From NCBI RefSeq assembly GCF_055900595.2, contig NZ_CM148325.1: 64,000 nucleotides of DNA; one strand, 5' to 3'. Numbering within the stretch: position 1 is the stretch's first letter; every line of letters starts with the position of its first letter. Position numbers and translations under genes: made by a program. This document shows positions 21,634-28,930 of the stretch, in pieces. The notes below the pieces were generated by a model that saw only the letters and a list, made by a program, of their open reading frames with translations, was not told the origin of the DNA and ran no database searches.

Positions 21634-23061
21634 CTAGCGCGACTGCTGATTATATTCATCATCGCGTTGATAAGCTTCATCATTCGGCTGCTCCGGAACC
21701 GACCGCAGTCGATACTCTTCATCCTGGCTCACCGCTTGTTCAGCCAAATCCGGATTAATCTCGCGTTTAATTTCTACCCCTAAACCGCGAAACGCTTCTG
21801 CTTGCGCCAGCACATTTCCGCGACCTGAAGAGAGTTTTTTCATTGCCTGACGATAGTTGTCCTGTGCTTTGTCCAGACTTTGACCAATCGCGGACATATC
21901 ATCGACAAACAAGCGCATTTTGTCGTACAACTTGCTGGCGCGATCGGCTATTTTCTGGGCGTTACGACTTTGATGCTCATAGCGCCAGAGGTTGGCGATA
22001 GTGCGCAGCGCCACCAGCAGCGTGGTCGGGCTAACCAGCATGATATTGTTTTTCAACGCTTCGGTGATCAGCTCCGGCTGGCGGTCAAGCGCCAGTAAAA
22101 AAGCGGGTTCAACGGGAATAAACATCAGCACGTAATCCAGGGTTCGCAGCCCCGGCAGCTGTTGATAATCTTTGCGTCCCAGCAAACGGATATGGTTACG
22201 CACCGACGCGATATGTTCCTGTAGCGCGCTTTCGCGGGTGTAGTCGTCTTCTGCGTTGAAATAGCGTTCATAGGCGACCAGCGTCATTTTTGCGTCGATC
22301 ACCACAACTTTGCCCTGCGGCAGCCGCACGATGACATCCGGCTGCATCCGCGAGCGGGCGTCATTTTCGATGCTGACCTGGGTTTCATATTCATACCCTT
22401 CACGCAGACCGGAAGCCTCCAGCACACGCGTCAATACTACCTCGCCCCAGTTGCCCTGGGTTTTATTGTCGCCTTTCAGCGCACGCGTCAGGTTGATCGC
22501 TTCCTGGGCCATTTGCGCGTTGAGCTGCTGGAGATTGCGTATTTCGTGAGTCAGGGTATGGCGTTCTTGTGCTTCTTTACCGAAACTGTCCTGAACCTGA
22601 CGACGAAAACCGTCCAGTTGTTCACGTAGTGGCGACAACAGGCTGTTCAGACTCTGACGGTTTTGCTCATCAACCCGGCGATTGCTGTGCTCGAAAATAC
22701 GGTTGGCGAGGTTTTCAAACTGCTCACTGAGGCGCTGTTCGCTGTTGATCATTTGGCGAATTTTATCGTCAGCATGTTGCTGTACGGCCTCCATTCGCGT
22801 GGTGACCTCACGCAGATCCGCCTCCAGCGAGGTGTTAATGCTTTGCAGACTGCGCACTTCATTATTGAGTAACTCGCACTCAGCACGCCAATGTTCGCTT
22901 TGGGTAATTTGTTGTTTTGCCGCACTTAACTCCGCGACCATCTCTTCACGTTCAGCGAATTGCTCGGCTTTTTGCTGCGCATGCTGATAACTGGCAATCA
23001 GCCAGCCAATCGCCACGCTCACCAACGCAATAACTGCGTAAACCATGATTGAGATATCCAC
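21634..23061 (-). CDS. rmuC: DNA recombination protein RmuC
   Basis: Coiled-coil protein with N-terminal TM segment; start placed at the GTG (VDISIMVYAVIALV…) giving 475 aa; the ORF is open up to 23154. Confidence 0.8.
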   Translation of the reverse strand: MDISIMVYAVIALVSVAIGWLIASYQHAQQKAEQFAEREEMVAELSAAKQQITQSEHWRAECELLNNEVRSLQSINTSLEADLREVTTRMEAVQQHADDKIRQMINSEQRLSEQFENLANRIFEHSNRRVDEQNRQSLNSLLSPLREQLDGFRRQVQDSFGKEAQERHTLTHEIRNLQQLNAQMAQEAINLTRALKGDNKTQGNWGEVVLTRVLEASGLREGYEYETQVSIENDARSRMQPDVIVRLPQGKVVVIDAKMTLVAYERYFNAEDDYTRESALQEHIASVRNHIRLLGRKDYQQLPGLRTLDYVLMFIPVEPAFLLALDRQPELITEALKNNIMLVSPTTLLVALRTIANLWRYEHQSRNAQKIADRASKLYDKMRLFVDDMSAIGQSLDKAQDNYRQAMKKLSSGRGNVLAQAEAFRGLGVEIKREINPDLAEQAVSQDEEYRLRSVPEQPNDEAYQRDDEYNQQSR

Positions 23062-23179
23062 AACGCCTCCAGCCTCATTACTTACCCGCACAAAATAGAA
23101 TTGTGCTGTACAAACGTCCAGTTTGAAAGAAGTTTCCTGCGAGGCGCTACGCAAAACGATCCTTAATTTTTATTATTTT

Positions 23180-23215
23180 ATCCCACAATATGAGACGTAG
23201 TTTATATTGTGGGAT
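23180..23215. promoter_or_regulatory. perfect 12-bp inverted repeat (ATCCCACAATAT-N12-ATATTGTGGGAT), candidate operator
   Basis: Arms at 23180-23191 and 23204-23215 are exact reverse complements; located about 60 bp upstream of the IclR-family regulator ATG. Confidence 0.5.
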
Positions 23216-23276
23216 ATATCACCTTTTCCCCACGTCATTATGTGGAACACTTCAGCAATATCATCAGGAGAAACGT

Positions 23277-24044
23277 ATGGCAGATACCTCTTCAACCACC
23301 GCTGGCGCACAAACGTTATTACGCGGGCTGGCGGTTCTTAATGCTGTTTATAACGGCTGCCATGACCTGAAAAGTATCGGCGAGTTCACCGGCACGACCC
23401 GGAGCACAACCCATCGTTTAGTCACCGTTCTGGTGGAACAACGCTACCTGCGCCACGTCCCAACGCAGGGCTACCAACTGGGCGCCAAACTGATCGAATT
23501 CGGTGCCAGAGCACTGGAAAGCACCTCGCTGTACGAAGTTGCGCTGCCCGTTTTGCAGCGTCTGGCCCGTTACACCCTGGACACCGTGCATCTGGGGATC
23601 GTTGAAGGCGGCGAAGTGCTGTATCTGGAGAAGATCAACAGTCAGCGTGGGCTGGAAATGCGCTCACGCCCAGGCCATCGCATGCCACTGGCAATCACCG
23701 GCATCGGCAAGGCATTGATCCTCAACCGAACAGAAGAAGAGTGGCGCACGCTGTTTAAGACCTGTGGTGATGAAACAAAACTGGGCACATTTATTCAGAA
23801 CATGCGTCGTTATGCCGCCAGTGGTTTTGCTTTTGATCTGGAAGAGAACGAGCCGACTATCCGTTGCGTTGCAGCGCCGGTTTACAACGCCCGGGATGAA
23901 ATTGTGGCGGCTATTTCTGTCGCCAGTACCACTACGTATATGTCACTGGCGCGTCTGGAAGAACTGGCACCTTACGTCAAATCCTGTGCAGAAGAGATAT
24001 CCGCTGAACTGGGCTGGGGTAAGCACGTCCACAAAAATAAATAA
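23277..24044 (+). CDS. IclR-family transcriptional regulator
   Basis: 255 aa from MADTSSTTAGAQTLLRGLAVLNAV…; N-terminal wHTH and C-terminal effector domain pattern of IclR/KdgR-like regulators; RBS AGGAGA upstream of ATG 23277. Confidence 0.75.
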   Translation: MADTSSTTAGAQTLLRGLAVLNAVYNGCHDLKSIGEFTGTTRSTTHRLVTVLVEQRYLRHVPTQGYQLGAKLIEFGARALESTSLYEVALPVLQRLARYTLDTVHLGIVEGGEVLYLEKINSQRGLEMRSRPGHRMPLAITGIGKALILNRTEEEWRTLFKTCGDETKLGTFIQNMRRYAASGFAFDLEENEPTIRCVAAPVYNARDEIVAAISVASTTTYMSLARLEELAPYVKSCAEEISAELGWGKHVHKNK

Positions 24045-24067
24045 ACCATGACTAAAGGAAACGGCTA

Positions 24068-25072
24068 ATGTCGGGAAACACCTCATTTATTGCCCTGGAC
24101 TGGGGAACGTCATCGCTTCGGGCATGGCGTTTTGGCGACTCACCCAATCCACAAGAAAAACGTGAATTCCCGTGGGGGATCATGAAATTACCCTCCCAGG
24201 CAGCAACACGTGAGGACGCTTTCCACGATACGTTTTTACGTGTCTGCGGCGACTGGCTGGCACAATCCCAATGCCCGGTTCTGGCTTGCGGCATGATCGG
24301 CAGTGCGCAAGGGTGGCAACCCGCAGCTTATTTACCTTGCCCGGTCACTCTCGAGGGTCTGGCAAAGCAGTTGACGCCTGTTATCTACCAGCAGCAGACA
24401 ATGCTGCACATCATTCCCGGCGTGATTAAAGAAGGTGAAATGCCCGAAGTGATGCGTGGCGAAGAGACACAAATCTTCGGTGCTATCTCGATGGAACCGG
24501 CCCTGCAAAACGCGATCCGCCAGGGTATGCCTGTGCTGATTGGCTTACCTGGCACACATGCGAAATGGGCGGTAGTTGAAAACAACACCATTACCGATTT
24601 CCGAACCTTTATGACAGGCGAGTTATTTGATGTTTTATCCCGCCATTCGATTCTCGGTGCCACCATGCGTTCGGGAGATGAACCGCACTGGGATGCCTTC
24701 ACCCATGGGCTGAAATCAGCACAAGAGCATCATCAGACCGGATTATTATCGACGCTGTTTTCGACCCGTTCGCGCCTGCTGACCAGTAATCTTACGCCGT
24801 CCTCGCAGGGGGATTACCTTTCAGGATTACTGATAGGCCATGAATTATGCGGTCTGGCATCCAGTTTGCTACGTGATTTACCCGCCACAACACCGATCGC
24901 CTTAATCGGTAGCGCCACTCTGAACAGCCGCTATTCACAAGCATTCAGCCACGTTTTTCCCGACAGACAGCTACACGCCATTCCTAATGCCACTGAACAG
25001 GGGTTATGGCGAATCGCCCACGCTGCCGGGCTACTCTCCACCAACGCCAGGGAATGTACTCATGCCATTTAA
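24068..25072 (+). CDS. 2-dehydro-3-deoxygalactonokinase-like sugar-acid kinase (DgoK family)
   Basis: 334 aa; blocks shared with E. coli DgoK as recalled: IALDWGTSSLRAW, MRGEETQIFGA, PGTHAKWAVV, DFRTFMTGELFDVLSRHSILGA, SGLLIG. Confidence 0.7.
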   Translation: MSGNTSFIALDWGTSSLRAWRFGDSPNPQEKREFPWGIMKLPSQAATREDAFHDTFLRVCGDWLAQSQCPVLACGMIGSAQGWQPAAYLPCPVTLEGLAKQLTPVIYQQQTMLHIIPGVIKEGEMPEVMRGEETQIFGAISMEPALQNAIRQGMPVLIGLPGTHAKWAVVENNTITDFRTFMTGELFDVLSRHSILGATMRSGDEPHWDAFTHGLKSAQEHHQTGLLSTLFSTRSRLLTSNLTPSSQGDYLSGLLIGHELCGLASSLLRDLPATTPIALIGSATLNSRYSQAFSHVFPDRQLHAIPNATEQGLWRIAHAAGLLSTNARECTHAI

Positions 25073-25691
25073 TACGCTTTTGCAAAAAACCGGGTTAGTC
25101 GCCATTTTACGCGGCGTGAAACCGGATGAGATTGTCGCCATCGGTGAAAAGCTGTATGCCGCTGGATTTCGCCTGATTGAGATTCCCATGAACTCGCCGG
25201 AGCCGTTGCAAAGTATCAGTTTACTGCGCGACGCCCTGCCTAAGGACTGCCTGGTCGGAGCCGGAACTGTGCTTTCGGTGGAGCAAGTCGTCGCGGTTAA
25301 AGAGGCTGGAGGCCAGATTATCGTAATGCCGCATTGCGATACTGCGGTGATCCGTCGTGCCCGTGCGCTGGGTATGTATTGTGCGCCTGGCGTCGCTACG
25401 CCCACCGAAGCTTTTGCTGCCATTGAACATGGCGCCAATGCCATCAAGCTGTTCCCGGCTGAACAAATTACGCCTGAAGTCACCAAAGCCTGGCGTGCGG
25501 TTATTCCACAATCCGTTCCGATGTTACCGGTTGGCGGTATCACTCCAGACACAATGGCGCGTTATCTGAGCCACGGCGCAAACGGCTTTGGCCTCGGTTC
25601 TGCGCTATATCGCCCCGGCATGACGCCAGAGCAAGTCTATGAAAATGCAGTACTGTTTATGAACGCATGGAACAATTTAAATAGCAAATAA
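25062..25691 (+). CDS. KDPG/KDPGal-type class I aldolase (DgoA/Eda family)
   Basis: 209 aa from MPFNTLLQKTGLVAILRGVKPDE…; LIEIPMNSP, GAGTVLSVEQV and VGGITPD blocks parallel DgoA; overlaps the kinase stop by 11 bp. Confidence 0.7.
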   Translation: MPFNTLLQKTGLVAILRGVKPDEIVAIGEKLYAAGFRLIEIPMNSPEPLQSISLLRDALPKDCLVGAGTVLSVEQVVAVKEAGGQIIVMPHCDTAVIRRARALGMYCAPGVATPTEAFAAIEHGANAIKLFPAEQITPEVTKAWRAVIPQSVPMLPVGGITPDTMARYLSHGANGFGLGSALYRPGMTPEQVYENAVLFMNAWNNLNSK

Positions 25692-25715
25692 CTGATAAAT
25701 AAGGATATAAAAGCA

Positions 25716-26690
25716 ATGATAAAACATCTTACCTTACCGAAAAAAATGGCTGCAATGGTACTTCTTGCCGGCGCTGCCCTCAGCACTGCGCCTGTGCAGG
25801 CGGCCTCCTGGCCAACCAAACAGATCGAGTTAGTCGTACCCTACGCGGCCGGAGGCGGTACGGATCTGGTTGCCCGTGCCTTTGCTGATGCCGCCAAAAA
25901 CCATTTGCCCGTCAGCATCGGGGTTATCAATAAACCTGGCGGTGGCGGCGCTATCGGCCTGAGTGAAATCGCCGCTGCCCGCCCTAACGGTTACAAAATG
26001 GGTTTAGGCACGGTTGAACTGACCACCCTTCCCAGTCTCGGAATGGTGCGTTTTAAAACCAGCGACTTTAAACCCATTGCCCGTCTGAATGCGGATCCGG
26101 CTGCTATCACCGTCCGTGCCGATGCACCGTGGAATAGCTATGAAGAATTTATGACTTACGCCAAAGCGAATCCCGGAAAAGTACGCATTGGTAACTCAGG
26201 CACCGGAGCAATCTGGCATCTGGCGGCAGCTGCACTGGAAGACAAAACGGGCGTGAAGTTTTCTCATGTCCCATATGACGGCGCAGCCCCTGCCATTACA
26301 GGCCTGTTAGGCGGGCATATTGAAGCGGTTTCCGTAAGCCCAGGTGAAGTTATCAATCATGTGAAAGGCGGCAAGCTGAAGACACTGGTAGTGATGGCGG
26401 ATGAACATATGAAAACCATGCCTGACGTACCGACGTTAAAAGAGAAAGGCGTTGATCTCTCCATCGGCACCTGGCGCGGCCTGATTGTGTCGCAAAAAAC
26501 GCCGCAGGATGTGGTGGATGTTCTGGCAAAGGCAGCAAAAGAGACGGCTGAAGAGCCTGCATTCCAGGATGCGCTGCAAAAGTTGAATCTCAACTATGCA
26601 TGGCTTGATGGTGCCAGCTTCCAGACCCAAATCAACGAGCAGGAAAAGTACTTTGACGAGCTGCTGACTCGCCTGGGCCTGAAAAAATAA
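25716..26690 (+). CDS. tripartite tricarboxylate transporter (TTT) periplasmic substrate-binding protein, TctC/Bug family
   Basis: 324 aa; signal peptide MIKHLTLPKKMAAMVLLAGAALSTAPVQA; family assignment from overall sequence character and the adjacent TctB/TctA-like genes. Confidence 0.7.
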   Translation: MIKHLTLPKKMAAMVLLAGAALSTAPVQAASWPTKQIELVVPYAAGGGTDLVARAFADAAKNHLPVSIGVINKPGGGGAIGLSEIAAARPNGYKMGLGTVELTTLPSLGMVRFKTSDFKPIARLNADPAAITVRADAPWNSYEEFMTYAKANPGKVRIGNSGTGAIWHLAAAALEDKTGVKFSHVPYDGAAPAITGLLGGHIEAVSVSPGEVINHVKGGKLKTLVVMADEHMKTMPDVPTLKEKGVDLSIGTWRGLIVSQKTPQDVVDVLAKAAKETAEEPAFQDALQKLNLNYAWLDGASFQTQINEQEKYFDELLTRLGLKK

Positions 26691-26706
26691 TCCCGAGGTA
26701 CGGTCG

Positions 26707-27213
26707 ATGAACACAAAACAGTCTGTTGCTCAACTCGCCGTACCGCACCGCAAGCGCCTTTCATCCACTGTGGTGGTGGCGCTGTTACTTTGTGTGGTTG
26801 CTGGCGCGGTGATAATTAATGCCGCTGATTTTCCAGCAACTGCCATTGAAACGGATCCCGGTGCAAGTGCCTTCCCTACTTTCTATGCCTGCGCTCTGAT
26901 TGTGCTCGCTGTCTTACTTGTGATACGCGATCTTTTGCTGGCAAAACCAGTCCCTTGCGCCAACGCACAGGAAAAACCGGCATTCAGGAAAACGGCAACA
27001 GGAATTGCGGCAACCGCGTTTTATATCGTGGCAATGAGCTACTGCGGTTATCTCATTACTACTCCTGTTTTCCTCATCGTCATTATGGCATTGATGGGCT
27101 ACAGGCGATGGGTACTCACACCGGGTATTGCGCTGCTGTTAACGGCAATCCTCTGGTTGCTGTTTGTCGAAGCGTTACAGGTGCCATTGCCTGTCGGCAC
27201 ATTTTTCGAATAA
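26707..27213 (+). CDS. TTT small membrane subunit (TctB-like)
   Basis: 168-aa hydrophobic four-TM-type protein between the TctC-like and TctA-like genes. Confidence 0.6.
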   Translation: MNTKQSVAQLAVPHRKRLSSTVVVALLLCVVAGAVIINAADFPATAIETDPGASAFPTFYACALIVLAVLLVIRDLLLAKPVPCANAQEKPAFRKTATGIAATAFYIVAMSYCGYLITTPVFLIVIMALMGYRRWVLTPGIALLLTAILWLLFVEALQVPLPVGTFFE

Positions 27214-27225
27214 CAGGGGCCTGCA

Positions 27226-28716
27226 ATGTTTGAAAGTGAACTTTTAACTCAGGGGTTTTCGACATTACTCAGTAATCCTCAGGCGCTGCTGTTTGCCACG
27301 TTTGGAGTGATGCTGGGTATTATGATTGGCGCTCTGCCTGGCCTGACAGCGACCATGGGTGTGGCGATTTTGCTGCCTTTCACCTACGGCATGGAGCCTG
27401 TTTCTGGCTTGTTGATGATTTGCGGTGTCTTTTTTGGTGGTGTGTATGGTGGTTCTATCACCGCAATTTTGCTCAAAATTCCCGGTACGCCTGCCGCCGC
27501 TGCCACCGCCATTGACGGATATGAGCTGACGAAGCAGGGAAAAGCCGGGCTGGCGTTAAGTGCCGCCACGTTCTCTTCTTTTAGCGGTGGAACGCTCAGC
27601 ATTATCGTATTGATGTTTCTCTCTCCGGTACTTGCCAGTTGGGCGTTGAAATTTAGTGCCTCGGAGTCCTTCGCCCTGGCAACCTTCGGACTGAGCATTA
27701 TTGCCAGTATTTCCGGTGAGTCACTGATTAAAGGGCTGATTGCCGGGGTTGGCGGATTGCTTATCGCAACGATAGGCCTTGATCCAATGGGCGGTTTTCC
27801 ACGCTTTACAGGTGGATTTGTGGAGCTGATGAATGTGCCATTTATCCCGGTGATGATTGGTTTATTTGCTGCTTCAGAAGCATTCCGCTCTATGGAGCAA
27901 AACCAGCAAATTCGTCAGGGGGCGAAGGTGGCTATCGGCAGTCTGTTACTGCCCTGGCAAACACTACGCCGCATCGCATTAACCATTTTGCGCTCATCAG
28001 GATTAGGGGTTTTTATCGGCATGATCCCCGGTGCGGGGGCAGATATTGCAGCTTTTGTTGCCTATAACGAAACTCGTCGTTTCAGTAAGACGCCTGAAAA
28101 CTTTGGTAAGGGTGAGATTAAGGCGGTGGCCTCCTGTGAGGCAGGCGCGAATGGCTGCACCGGTGGCGCATTGTTACCTATGCTGACGTTGGGGATCCCA
28201 GGCGATGCGGTAACTGCCATCATGCTGGGCGCGTTAACGTTACAAGGGATGCAGCCAGGCCCACTTATGTTTACCGACCACGGCGATATGGTTTATACGC
28301 TGTTTGTCGGCATGATCTTTTGTTACTTCATGCTGCTAGTTCTTGGACTGCTCTCTTTGAAAGTCATCGGTAACGTGGTGAAGATCCCCGGCAATATTCT
28401 CACGCCGATGATCCTCGCACTTTGTGTGGTCGGGACTTATGCGCTGAACAATAGCCTGTTTGATGTTGGCATTATGCTGATTGCAGGCGTGGTGGGCTAT
28501 TTCATGCAAAAAGGGGGGTATCCGGCATCACCCGTAGTGCTGGCATTGATTATGGGGCCAATGGCGGAAAGTAATTTTCGCCGTGCGCTGTCGCTTTCTG
28601 GTGGGTCACTCGACTTTCTGTATACCCGACCGATAACCCTGGCATTGCTGACACTGGCAGCCTTTACGCTACTGACGCCAATAATACGCAAAATTATGCG
28701 CTTACGGCGTCAGTAA
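27226..28716 (+). CDS. TTT large permease subunit (TctA-like)
   Basis: 496-aa polytopic membrane protein; glycine-rich blocks typical of TctA. Confidence 0.7.
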   Translation: MFESELLTQGFSTLLSNPQALLFATFGVMLGIMIGALPGLTATMGVAILLPFTYGMEPVSGLLMICGVFFGGVYGGSITAILLKIPGTPAAAATAIDGYELTKQGKAGLALSAATFSSFSGGTLSIIVLMFLSPVLASWALKFSASESFALATFGLSIIASISGESLIKGLIAGVGGLLIATIGLDPMGGFPRFTGGFVELMNVPFIPVMIGLFAASEAFRSMEQNQQIRQGAKVAIGSLLLPWQTLRRIALTILRSSGLGVFIGMIPGAGADIAAFVAYNETRRFSKTPENFGKGEIKAVASCEAGANGCTGGALLPMLTLGIPGDAVTAIMLGALTLQGMQPGPLMFTDHGDMVYTLFVGMIFCYFMLLVLGLLSLKVIGNVVKIPGNILTPMILALCVVGTYALNNSLFDVGIMLIAGVVGYFMQKGGYPASPVVLALIMGPMAESNFRRALSLSGGSLDFLYTRPITLALLTLAAFTLLTPIIRKIMRLRRQ

Positions 28717-28770
28717 TTGATATCGCTCCCCGACGTTGGGGAGTATGAGACTGATGACAAACGCTAAATT

Positions 28771-28868
28771 GCCTGATGCGCTGCGCTTATCAGGCCTACC
28801 ACAGAAATGCAATATATTGAATTTGCATGCTTTTGTAGGCCGGATAAGGCGATCACGCCGCATCCGGC
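28771..28868. repeat. REP palindromic unit pair
   Basis: GCCTGATGCGCTGCGCTTATCAGGCCTAC … GTAGGCCGGATAAGGCGATCACGCCGCATCCGGC. Confidence 0.75.
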
Positions 28869-28895
28869 ATGAACAAAGCACACGTTAACAACAAT

Positions 28896-28930
28896 CGGAA
28901 TGCTCCCCTAAGCCAGGGAGCGTTTTTTAT
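28896..28930 (+). terminator. rho-independent terminator after the transporter operon
   Basis: GCTCCCCtaagccaGGGAGCG followed by TTTTTTATTT. Confidence 0.55.

What the first reader, a model, noticed from the sequence alone, without database searches (positions are those of the whole stretch)
23046..23154. rmuC start codon ambiguity (GTG versus upstream extension)
The rmuC reading frame stays open about 31 codons upstream of the GTG that gives the 475-aa product I recall for K-12. The extension would run into the divergent promoter region of the IclR-type regulator, so the start choice affects how that region is interpreted.
Basis: inference. Interest (0 to 1): 0.15.

Follow-up and report, generated by a model that had tools for sequence, protein, structure and literature searches.

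The report
rmuC starts at the annotated GTG
The open reading frame upstream of the rmuC start codon is a chance by-product of a one-base length difference in this strain's untranslated leader, and it lies over the gene's known DNA-damage (LexA) control region, so the standard 475-residue protein is correct and the finding is ordinary.

Summary
On the minus strand the rmuC frame stays open for 36 codons upstream of the GTG at 23061, with an in-frame TTG at 23154 (31 codons, 506 aa). The extension is not coding.

- **Allele difference:** K-12 and 4953 of 5426 complete E. coli genomes carry an allele one base longer, which puts a TAA in frame 8 codons upstream of the GTG. Only 352 genomes share the window's short allele.
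- **Cross-species frame:** Among 80 Enterobacteriaceae species plus K-12 and the window, 60 of 82 have a stop within 8 codons upstream. Three species have a stop directly before an ATG.
- **Start column:** The aligned start is always a start-type codon (GTG 73, ATG 5, TTG 3), and GGAGG/GGGGG lies 4 nt upstream in 68 of 82.
- **Frame instability:** Indels that are not multiples of three shift the frame between species.
- **No coding signature:** The 93 bases are more conserved than the coding 5' end and show no codon periodicity.
- **What the region holds:** a LexA box (23121-23106), promoter-like hexamers, a short leader and the ribosome-binding site. rmuC/yigN is a published SOS gene.
- **Chance level:** An open run this long is expected about 10-23% of the time, and 18% was observed.

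RefSeq uses the GTG in every genome I checked. This is ordinary and already known.

The parts
21634..23061 (-). rmuC coding sequence, 475 aa, GTG start at 23061-23059, stop codon included
   Evidence: ORF. The RefSeq CDS in the identical strain Z0117EC0005 starts at this GTG. Pfam RmuC PF02646, E 7e-109. Residues about 3-25 are strongly hydrophobic and form the N-terminal membrane anchor.
23059..23061 (-). True start codon (GTG)
   Evidence: The aligned column is GTG in 73, ATG in 5 and TTG in 3 of 82 loci. One further locus, L075, was misregistered. Three Superficieibacter-type loci have TGA immediately upstream of an ATG at this position.
23066..23070 (-). Shine-Dalgarno GGAGG, 4 nt before the GTG
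   Evidence: GGAGG or GGGGG at a spacing of 4 nt in 68 of 82 loci. Coordinates.
23071..23080 (-). Variable leader block TAATGAGGCT (short allele). The major E. coli allele TGTTGCGTCA plus one extra T is 1 nt longer.
   Evidence: Window versus K-12 alignment. The short allele is in 352 of 5426 genomes and the long allele in 4953 of 5426. The long allele puts TAA in frame 8 codons upstream of the GTG.
23092..23097 (-). Candidate -10 hexamer TATTTT. An alternative is CACAAT at 23105-23100.
   Evidence: Read from the sequence. Conserved at >=90% column identity. These are 8/12 matches, below the 9/12 threshold of the scan. Inferred, not mapped.
23106..23121 (-). LexA (SOS) box CTGGACGTTTGTACAG, overlapping the candidate -35 TGGACG (23120-23115)
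   Evidence: CTGGACGTTT[A/G]TACAG is present in 76 of 82 loci, with near variants in 4 more. rmuC/yigN is listed in the E. coli LexA regulon (PMC6590174). In Salmonella yigN is induced 19.5-fold and has one SOS box 44 bp from the start (PMC8072944). In Vibrio cholerae rmuC is induced 19.7-fold (PMC5963079).
23134..23156 (-). Conserved upstream element TTTTGCGTAGCGCCTCGCAGGAA of unknown role. It contains the TTG (23154-23152) that would start the 506-aa ORF.
   Evidence: The arms are nearly invariant and the centre is variable across the 80 species, whatever the upstream neighbour. There is no significant RNA fold (z -0.73) and no Rfam match.
23062..23154 (-). The putative 31-codon N-terminal extension. 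It is non-coding: rmuC promoter/operator and 5' leader.
   Evidence: In-frame stops in most relatives, indels that are not multiples of three, and no codon periodicity. No Pfam match for the 31-aa peptide.

Best explanation
rmuC is translated from the annotated GTG at 23061, which is served by the GGAGG 4 nt upstream, and gives the 475-aa membrane-anchored protein. The 93 bases upstream are rmuC's SOS-regulated control region and short leader. In order they hold a conserved upstream element, a LexA operator overlapping the -35 or spacer of a sigma-70-type promoter, a -10 hexamer, a leader of roughly 25-30 nt and the ribosome-binding site. LexA bound at the box represses transcription until DNA damage occurs. 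The frame happens to be open in this strain because its leader carries a minority allele one base shorter than the common one. That shift takes the leader's two TAA triplets out of frame and brings a TTG inside the conserved upstream element into frame. The predicted transcription start (about 23084-23094) lies downstream of that TTG, so the SOS transcript would not contain it. Status of the steps: the start-codon column, SD, stops, indels, allele frequencies and box conservation are shown here. LexA regulation is taken from the literature. The promoter hexamers and the transcription start are inferred.
For: **K-12 comparison.** K-12 has one extra base in the leader and an in-frame TAA 8 codons upstream of the same GTG.

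**E. coli population.** The long allele occurs in 4953 and the short allele in 352 of 5426 complete genomes. RefSeq annotates the GTG (a 1428-nt CDS) in all 9 genomes inspected, including 5 with the short allele.

**Cross-species frame.** Over 82 loci the nearest in-frame stop is within 8 codons in 60 and 9-30 codons in 7. The frame is open for >=31 codons in 15, which is scattered across genera and at chance level.

**Start column and SD.** The start column is GTG 73, ATG 5, TTG 3. The SD sits at a 4-nt spacing in 68 of 82.

**Frame instability.** The distance from the LexA box to the start is 38-66 nt, with residues mod 3 of 0:50, 2:16 and 1:14. The conserved upstream blocks therefore fall in different frames in different species.

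**No coding signature.** Column identity in the extension is 0.91/0.88/0.85 by phase (no periodicity). In the first 19 codons of the CDS it is 0.75/0.84/0.60.

**Alternative ATG.** The ATG at codon 6 is I/L/V/M in other species and ATA in one E. coli, so it is not a conserved alternative start.

**Literature.** rmuC/yigN is a LexA-regulon member with a box about 44 bp from the start.
Against: There is no direct experimental evidence for the start. Neither N-terminomics supplement I could search lists rmuC or yigN, and I found no mapped transcription start. In this particular window the TTG is preceded by AAGGA at a 5-nt spacing, which is island-specific sequence. A 9/12 promoter-like site on the minus strand at 23264-23237 could in principle give a transcript that includes the TTG. 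That site is what the shuffles predict by chance (1 found, mean 0.9 expected). The SD-to-GTG spacing of 4 nt is at the short end of the usual range.
Confidence: 0.95

Rival explanations
1. In strains with the short leader allele, a minor N-terminally extended RmuC proteoform (506 aa) is made from the TTG at 23154. It would be translated from read-through or upstream-initiated transcripts and would add 31 residues ahead of the membrane anchor.
For: The frame is open and the TTG is in frame in the window and in the other short-allele strains. In the window AAGGA lies 5 nt before the TTG. There is a promoter-like site on the minus strand at 23264-23237. One database protein (P0010) was called with a similar extension.
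Against: The extension is absent in at least 91% of E. coli and closed within 8 codons in 60 of 82 loci. The peptide has no family match. The similarity seen in P0010 is what translating conserved non-coding DNA in the same frame produces, and the other extended database calls are frameshifted fragments. The AAGGA is not present where udp is the upstream neighbour (L083). LexA bound at the box would sit inside such a transcript's coding region. RefSeq never uses the TTG in the genomes I checked.
Confidence: 0.03
2. Translation actually starts at the ATG six codons downstream (23046-23044), giving a 470-aa protein, and the GTG is not used.
For: ATG is the stronger start codon, and it is present in the window and in K-12.
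Against: That codon is ATA in an E. coli strain (L086) and encodes I, L or V in most other genera. The conserved SD would be 19 nt away from it. The GTG column switches only among GTG, TTG and ATG, the signature of a start codon. Starting at codon 6 would also remove the conserved residues 1-5 (V/M-D-I-S-I).
Confidence: 0.02

Closest known systems
E. coli K-12 rmuC (yigN, b3832) and its LexA-regulated promoter region
   Same: Same gene, same GTG start, same GGAGGCGTT-GTG ribosome-binding site, and identical LexA box CTGGACGTTTGTACAG and flanking promoter-like sequence. Same downstream neighbours ubiE and ubiJ.
   Different: The window's leader is 1 nt shorter and carries a 10-nt block substitution, which opens the upstream frame. 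The upstream neighbour is an IclR / sugar-acid / tripartite-transporter island instead of udp. The RmuC protein differs at a few residues, for example Ile3 instead of Phe3.
Salmonella enterica yigN (STM14_4775) SOS gene
   Same: It has one SOS box about 44 bp from the start and is strongly induced by DNA damage (PMC8072944). The S. enterica subsp. diarizonae locus L034 has the same box, SD and GTG.
   Different: In L034 the upstream frame is also open by chance (63 codons), with a different box-to-start distance of 47 nt. The leader sequence differs.
Spurious N-terminal extensions from longest-ORF gene calling
   Same: An upstream in-frame TTG or GTG with no conserved frame. It is a typical source of mis-called starts, and a few database entries do carry such an extension.
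   Different: The covered DNA here is unusually well conserved because it is regulatory. A naive protein alignment among same-frame taxa could therefore look like N-terminal conservation.

Membership tests
RmuC family (Pfam PF02646) protein-coding gene | Match to the RmuC family profile above the curated threshold | tested here: met
   PF02646, E 7.2e-109, 363.8 bits against a cut-off of 26, residues 136-432.
RmuC family (Pfam PF02646) protein-coding gene | Orthology and synteny with K-12 rmuC (upstream of ubiE-ubiJ) | tested here: met
   RefSeq annotation of the identical strain and of K-12. 97-99% identity to other Escherichia loci.
Genuine N-terminal coding extension | Reading frame maintained across orthologues (no in-frame stops, indels in multiples of three) | tested here: not met
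   Stop within 8 codons in 60 of 82 loci. Box-to-start distances are spread over all three residues mod 3. K-12 has TAA at -8.
Genuine N-terminal coding extension | Codon-position pattern of substitution (third positions most variable) | tested here: not met
   Identity by phase is 0.91/0.88/0.85 in the extension, against 0.75/0.84/0.60 in the CDS.
Genuine N-terminal coding extension | Conserved start codon with a ribosome-binding site at the extended start | tested here: not met
   The TTG belongs to a conserved non-coding element and is in frame only when the spacing is 44 or 47 nt. The AAGGA upstream of it is specific to the island junction.
Genuine N-terminal coding extension | Direct evidence of translation initiation or an N-terminal peptide | not testable with these tools
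   The searchable N-terminomics supplements have no rmuC or yigN entry.
LexA (SOS) regulon promoter | LexA box of the form CTG-N10-CAG close to the promoter or start | tested here: met
   CTGGACGTTTGTACAG at 23121-23106, 44 nt before the GTG, matching the 20-nt consensus at 13 of 20 positions. Conserved in 80 of 82 loci counting near variants.
LexA (SOS) regulon promoter | LexA-dependent induction by DNA damage | not testable with these tools
   Taken from the literature only: the E. coli regulon table (PMC6590174), 19.5-fold in Salmonella (PMC8072944) and 19.7-fold in V. cholerae (PMC5963079).
LexA (SOS) regulon promoter | Mapped transcription start downstream of or overlapping the box | not tested
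   Only candidate hexamers were found (TGGACG-17-TATTTT or TTCAAA-16-CACAAT, each 8/12), below the scan threshold. I found no TSS data.

The most novel reading that the evidence does not exclude
The nearly invariant 23-nt element TTTTGCGTAGCGCCTCGCAGGAA (23156-23134) sits just upstream of the LexA box and supplies the in-frame TTG. It may be the binding site of a second, so far undescribed regulator of rmuC, or an upstream promoter element. In that case rmuC expression would be controlled by more than LexA. I could not check RegulonDB or EcoCyc, so the element may already be annotated there.
Probability: 0.3. Interest if true: 0.3.

Novelty: already known. Interest (0 to 1): 0.05.

Why it matters
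It matters little beyond annotation hygiene. The result confirms that the RefSeq start for rmuC is right in this strain. It also shows why a longest-ORF caller would over-extend the gene in about 6.5% of E. coli genomes and in some Salmonella, Klebsiella and Citrobacter lineages. One caution follows from it. The upstream DNA is conserved because it is regulatory, so a protein-level alignment among taxa that share the frame could be mistaken for a conserved N-terminus. The DNA-level checks (stops, indel phase, codon periodicity) avoid that trap. The region between rmuC and the IclR gene should be read as two separate control regions: rmuC's SOS promoter (23062-23156) and the island's own regulatory DNA (23157-23276).

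Tried and rejected
- **Experimental start-site evidence.** I searched the supplements of two N-terminomics/riboproteogenomics papers for rmuC and yigN and found nothing. A text search combining rmuC with start-codon and retapamulin terms returned no paper that mentions rmuC.
- **Transcription start data.** The dRNA-seq paper I recalled is not held. A search for rmuC plus 'transcription start sites' gave nothing usable.
- **Exact LexA-box string in papers.** No hits. The heterology index of about 9.3 that I recall for E. coli yigN therefore rests on memory only.
- **Structured RNA in the intergenic region.** Rfam gave only two chance-level matches, both well below their gathering scores. Folding the conserved element and the leader gave z-scores of -0.73 and +0.89, so I rejected a riboswitch, attenuator or terminator reading. 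The 'terminator-like' site at 23156-23135 is the conserved element and is not followed by a proper T-run in K-12.
- **Protein database search with the extended N-terminus.** It returned mostly fragments. The few 'extended' entries were frameshifted calls or same-frame translations of the conserved DNA, so this is not evidence for the extension.
- **ATG at codon 6 as the real start.** Rejected because the codon is not conserved.

Full report
**What is in the sequence.** rmuC lies on the minus strand. The mechanical ORF is 21634..23154 (-) and gives 506 aa from a TTG. The GTG at 23061-23059 gives 475 aa. The frame upstream of that GTG is open for 36 codons, with in-frame start-type codons at -10 (GTG, 23091) and -31 (TTG, 23154). 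The window is an E. coli chromosome. A 501-nt query across the rmuC/IclR junction matches 14 listed complete genomes at 100% (17 genomes at >=99%). RefSeq annotates rmuC in the identical strain Z0117EC0005 as a 1428-nt CDS starting at this GTG, with the IclR regulator starting at window 23277. K-12 rmuC (b3832) is also 1428 nt from the homologous GTG.

**Is the open frame more than chance?** It is not. With the local base composition, 9.7% of shuffles of the upstream 120 nt keep 31 or more codons open, and the uniform-composition expectation is 23%. Among 82 related loci, 15 (18%) have a frame at least that open.

**Comparison with K-12 and the E. coli population.**
- Aligning the window with K-12 shows near-identity from about window 23156 down into the gene.
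- The exception is a 10-11-nt block in the leader: window GTAAG-TAATGAGGCT, K-12 GTAAGTTGTTGCGTCA. K-12 is one base longer.
- In K-12 the frame reads ...ILCG*VVASGGV-VDFSIM, with a TAA 8 codons upstream of the GTG.
- In the window the missing base moves the leader's TAA triplets out of frame.
- A 36-nt probe specific for the short allele matches 352 of 5426 complete genomes. The K-12-type probe matches 4953.
- RefSeq uses the same GTG in all nine genomes inspected, five of them with the short allele.
- In short-allele strains without the island, the frame runs open for 58 codons into the 3' end of udp (L083, L003). That is plainly not coding.

**Comparison across species.** One scan of species-representative genomes returned 80 Enterobacteriaceae loci with flanks.
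- **Start column:** at the column aligned to residue 1 the codon is GTG in 73, ATG in 5 and TTG in 3. One locus, L075, was misregistered. Interchange among exactly these three codons is what a start codon shows.
- **Ribosome-binding site:** GGAGG or GGGGG lies 4 nt upstream in 68 of 82.
- **Upstream stops:** the nearest in-frame stop is within 8 codons in 60 loci. In three Superficieibacter-type loci a TGA directly abuts an ATG at this position.
- **Frame instability:** the distance from the conserved upstream box to the start ranges from 38 to 66 nt, with residues mod 3 of 0 (50 loci), 2 (16) and 1 (14). The conserved upstream blocks therefore fall in different frames in different species.
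- **Periodicity:** column identity in the 93 nt is 0.91/0.88/0.85 by phase, with no periodicity and higher than in the gene. The first 19 codons of the CDS show 0.75/0.84/0.60, with the expected third-position relaxation.
- **Codon 6 ATG:** it is I, L or V elsewhere and ATA in one E. coli, so it is not a conserved alternative start.
- **Extension peptide:** the 31-aa peptide has no Pfam match, whereas the 475-aa protein matches RmuC at E 7e-109.
- **Membrane anchor:** the hydrophobic anchor begins within a few residues of the GTG-encoded N-terminus.
- **Database proteins:** a database search with the extended N-terminus found mostly entries beginning MD(I/F/L)S. The few extended entries are frameshifted fragments, plus one same-frame translation of the conserved DNA.

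**What the 93 bases are.** Reading the minus strand from 23156 to 23062 (coordinates):
- a conserved element TTTTGCGTAGCGCCTCGCAGGAA (23156-23134), which contains the TTG;
- a LexA box CTGGACGTTTGTACAG (23121-23106);
- two overlapping candidate sigma-70 promoters, TGGACG-17-TATTTT (-10 at 23097-23092) and TTCAAA-16-CACAAT (-10 at 23105-23100), each 8/12 and so just under the threshold of the scan;
- the variable leader block (23080-23071);
- GGAGG (23070-23066), then CGTT, then the GTG.

The box is present as CTGGACGTTT[A/G]TACAG in 76 of 82 loci, with near variants in four more.

The literature lists rmuC (yigN) in the E. coli LexA regulon (PMC6590174). It reports Salmonella yigN as induced 19.5-fold, with one SOS box 44 bp from the start and a heterology index of 8.71 (PMC8072944). 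It reports V. cholerae rmuC as induced 19.7-fold by mitomycin C (PMC5963079). In the window the box ends 44 nt before the GTG.

Either candidate promoter puts the transcription start at about 23084-23094. That is downstream of the TTG, so the SOS transcript would not contain the extended start. This last step is inference, because I found no mapped 5' end.

**The IclR side.** Homology with K-12 stops at about 23156. In K-12 the udp terminator abuts the conserved element. In the window, island DNA does. The extension therefore does not intrude into IclR-specific DNA. That DNA (23157-23276) has its own perfect 13-nt inverted repeat at 23179-23191 / 23204-23216, which is plausibly the regulator's operator. 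The start choice does not change how the IclR promoter region is read.

**Residual doubts.**
- There is no direct initiation or N-terminal peptide evidence.
- In this window the TTG has an AAGGA 5 nt upstream, and a chance-level promoter-like site (23264-23237, minus strand) could give a transcript that includes it. I put a minor extended proteoform at about 3%.
- The role of the conserved 23-nt element is unexplained. It does not fold better than shuffles and has no Rfam match. A protein-binding site is the most likely reading.

**Verdict.** The upstream open frame is a chance consequence of a leader length polymorphism lying over a known SOS promoter/operator. This is ordinary and already known.

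Noticed in passing
window 23134-23156 (minus strand): A 23-nt element TTTTGCGTAGCGCCTCGCAGGAA lies just upstream of the rmuC LexA box. Its arms are nearly invariant and its centre is variable across the 80 Enterobacteriaceae species, and it is kept whether the upstream neighbour is udp or the IclR island. No significant RNA fold and no Rfam match. It may be an unrecognised regulator site.
   Followed up: partly
window about 23157-28900: An island lies between rmuC and udp. It encodes an IclR regulator, a 2-dehydro-3-deoxygalactonokinase-like kinase, a KDPGal-aldolase-like enzyme and a Bug/TctC-TctB-TctA tripartite transporter, followed by REP-like repeats (about 28770-28870) and a udp 3' end and terminator that differ from K-12. 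The junction is covered in 1456 of 5425 complete E. coli genomes and is absent from K-12.
   Followed up: partly
window 23179-23191 and 23204-23216: A perfect 13-nt inverted repeat TATCCCACAATAT / ATATTGTGGGATA with a 12-nt spacer, about 60 bp upstream of the IclR-family gene's ATG. It is probably that regulator's operator.
   Followed up: no
window 23071-23080; L002:1817-1827: The rmuC leader exists as two discrete alleles in E. coli that differ by a block substitution plus 1 nt (352 versus 4953 of 5426 genomes). The short allele occurs mostly next to udp. Its combination with the island, as in this window, is rare (17-18 genomes at >=99% in the two junction queries).
   Followed up: yes
L034, L061, L022, L043, L073 (upstream of position 2501): The same spurious open upstream frame occurs by chance in S. 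enterica subsp. diarizonae (63 codons), K. pneumoniae (45), some Citrobacter species (47) and Klebsiella indica (43). Longest-ORF callers could over-extend rmuC there too.
   Followed up: partly
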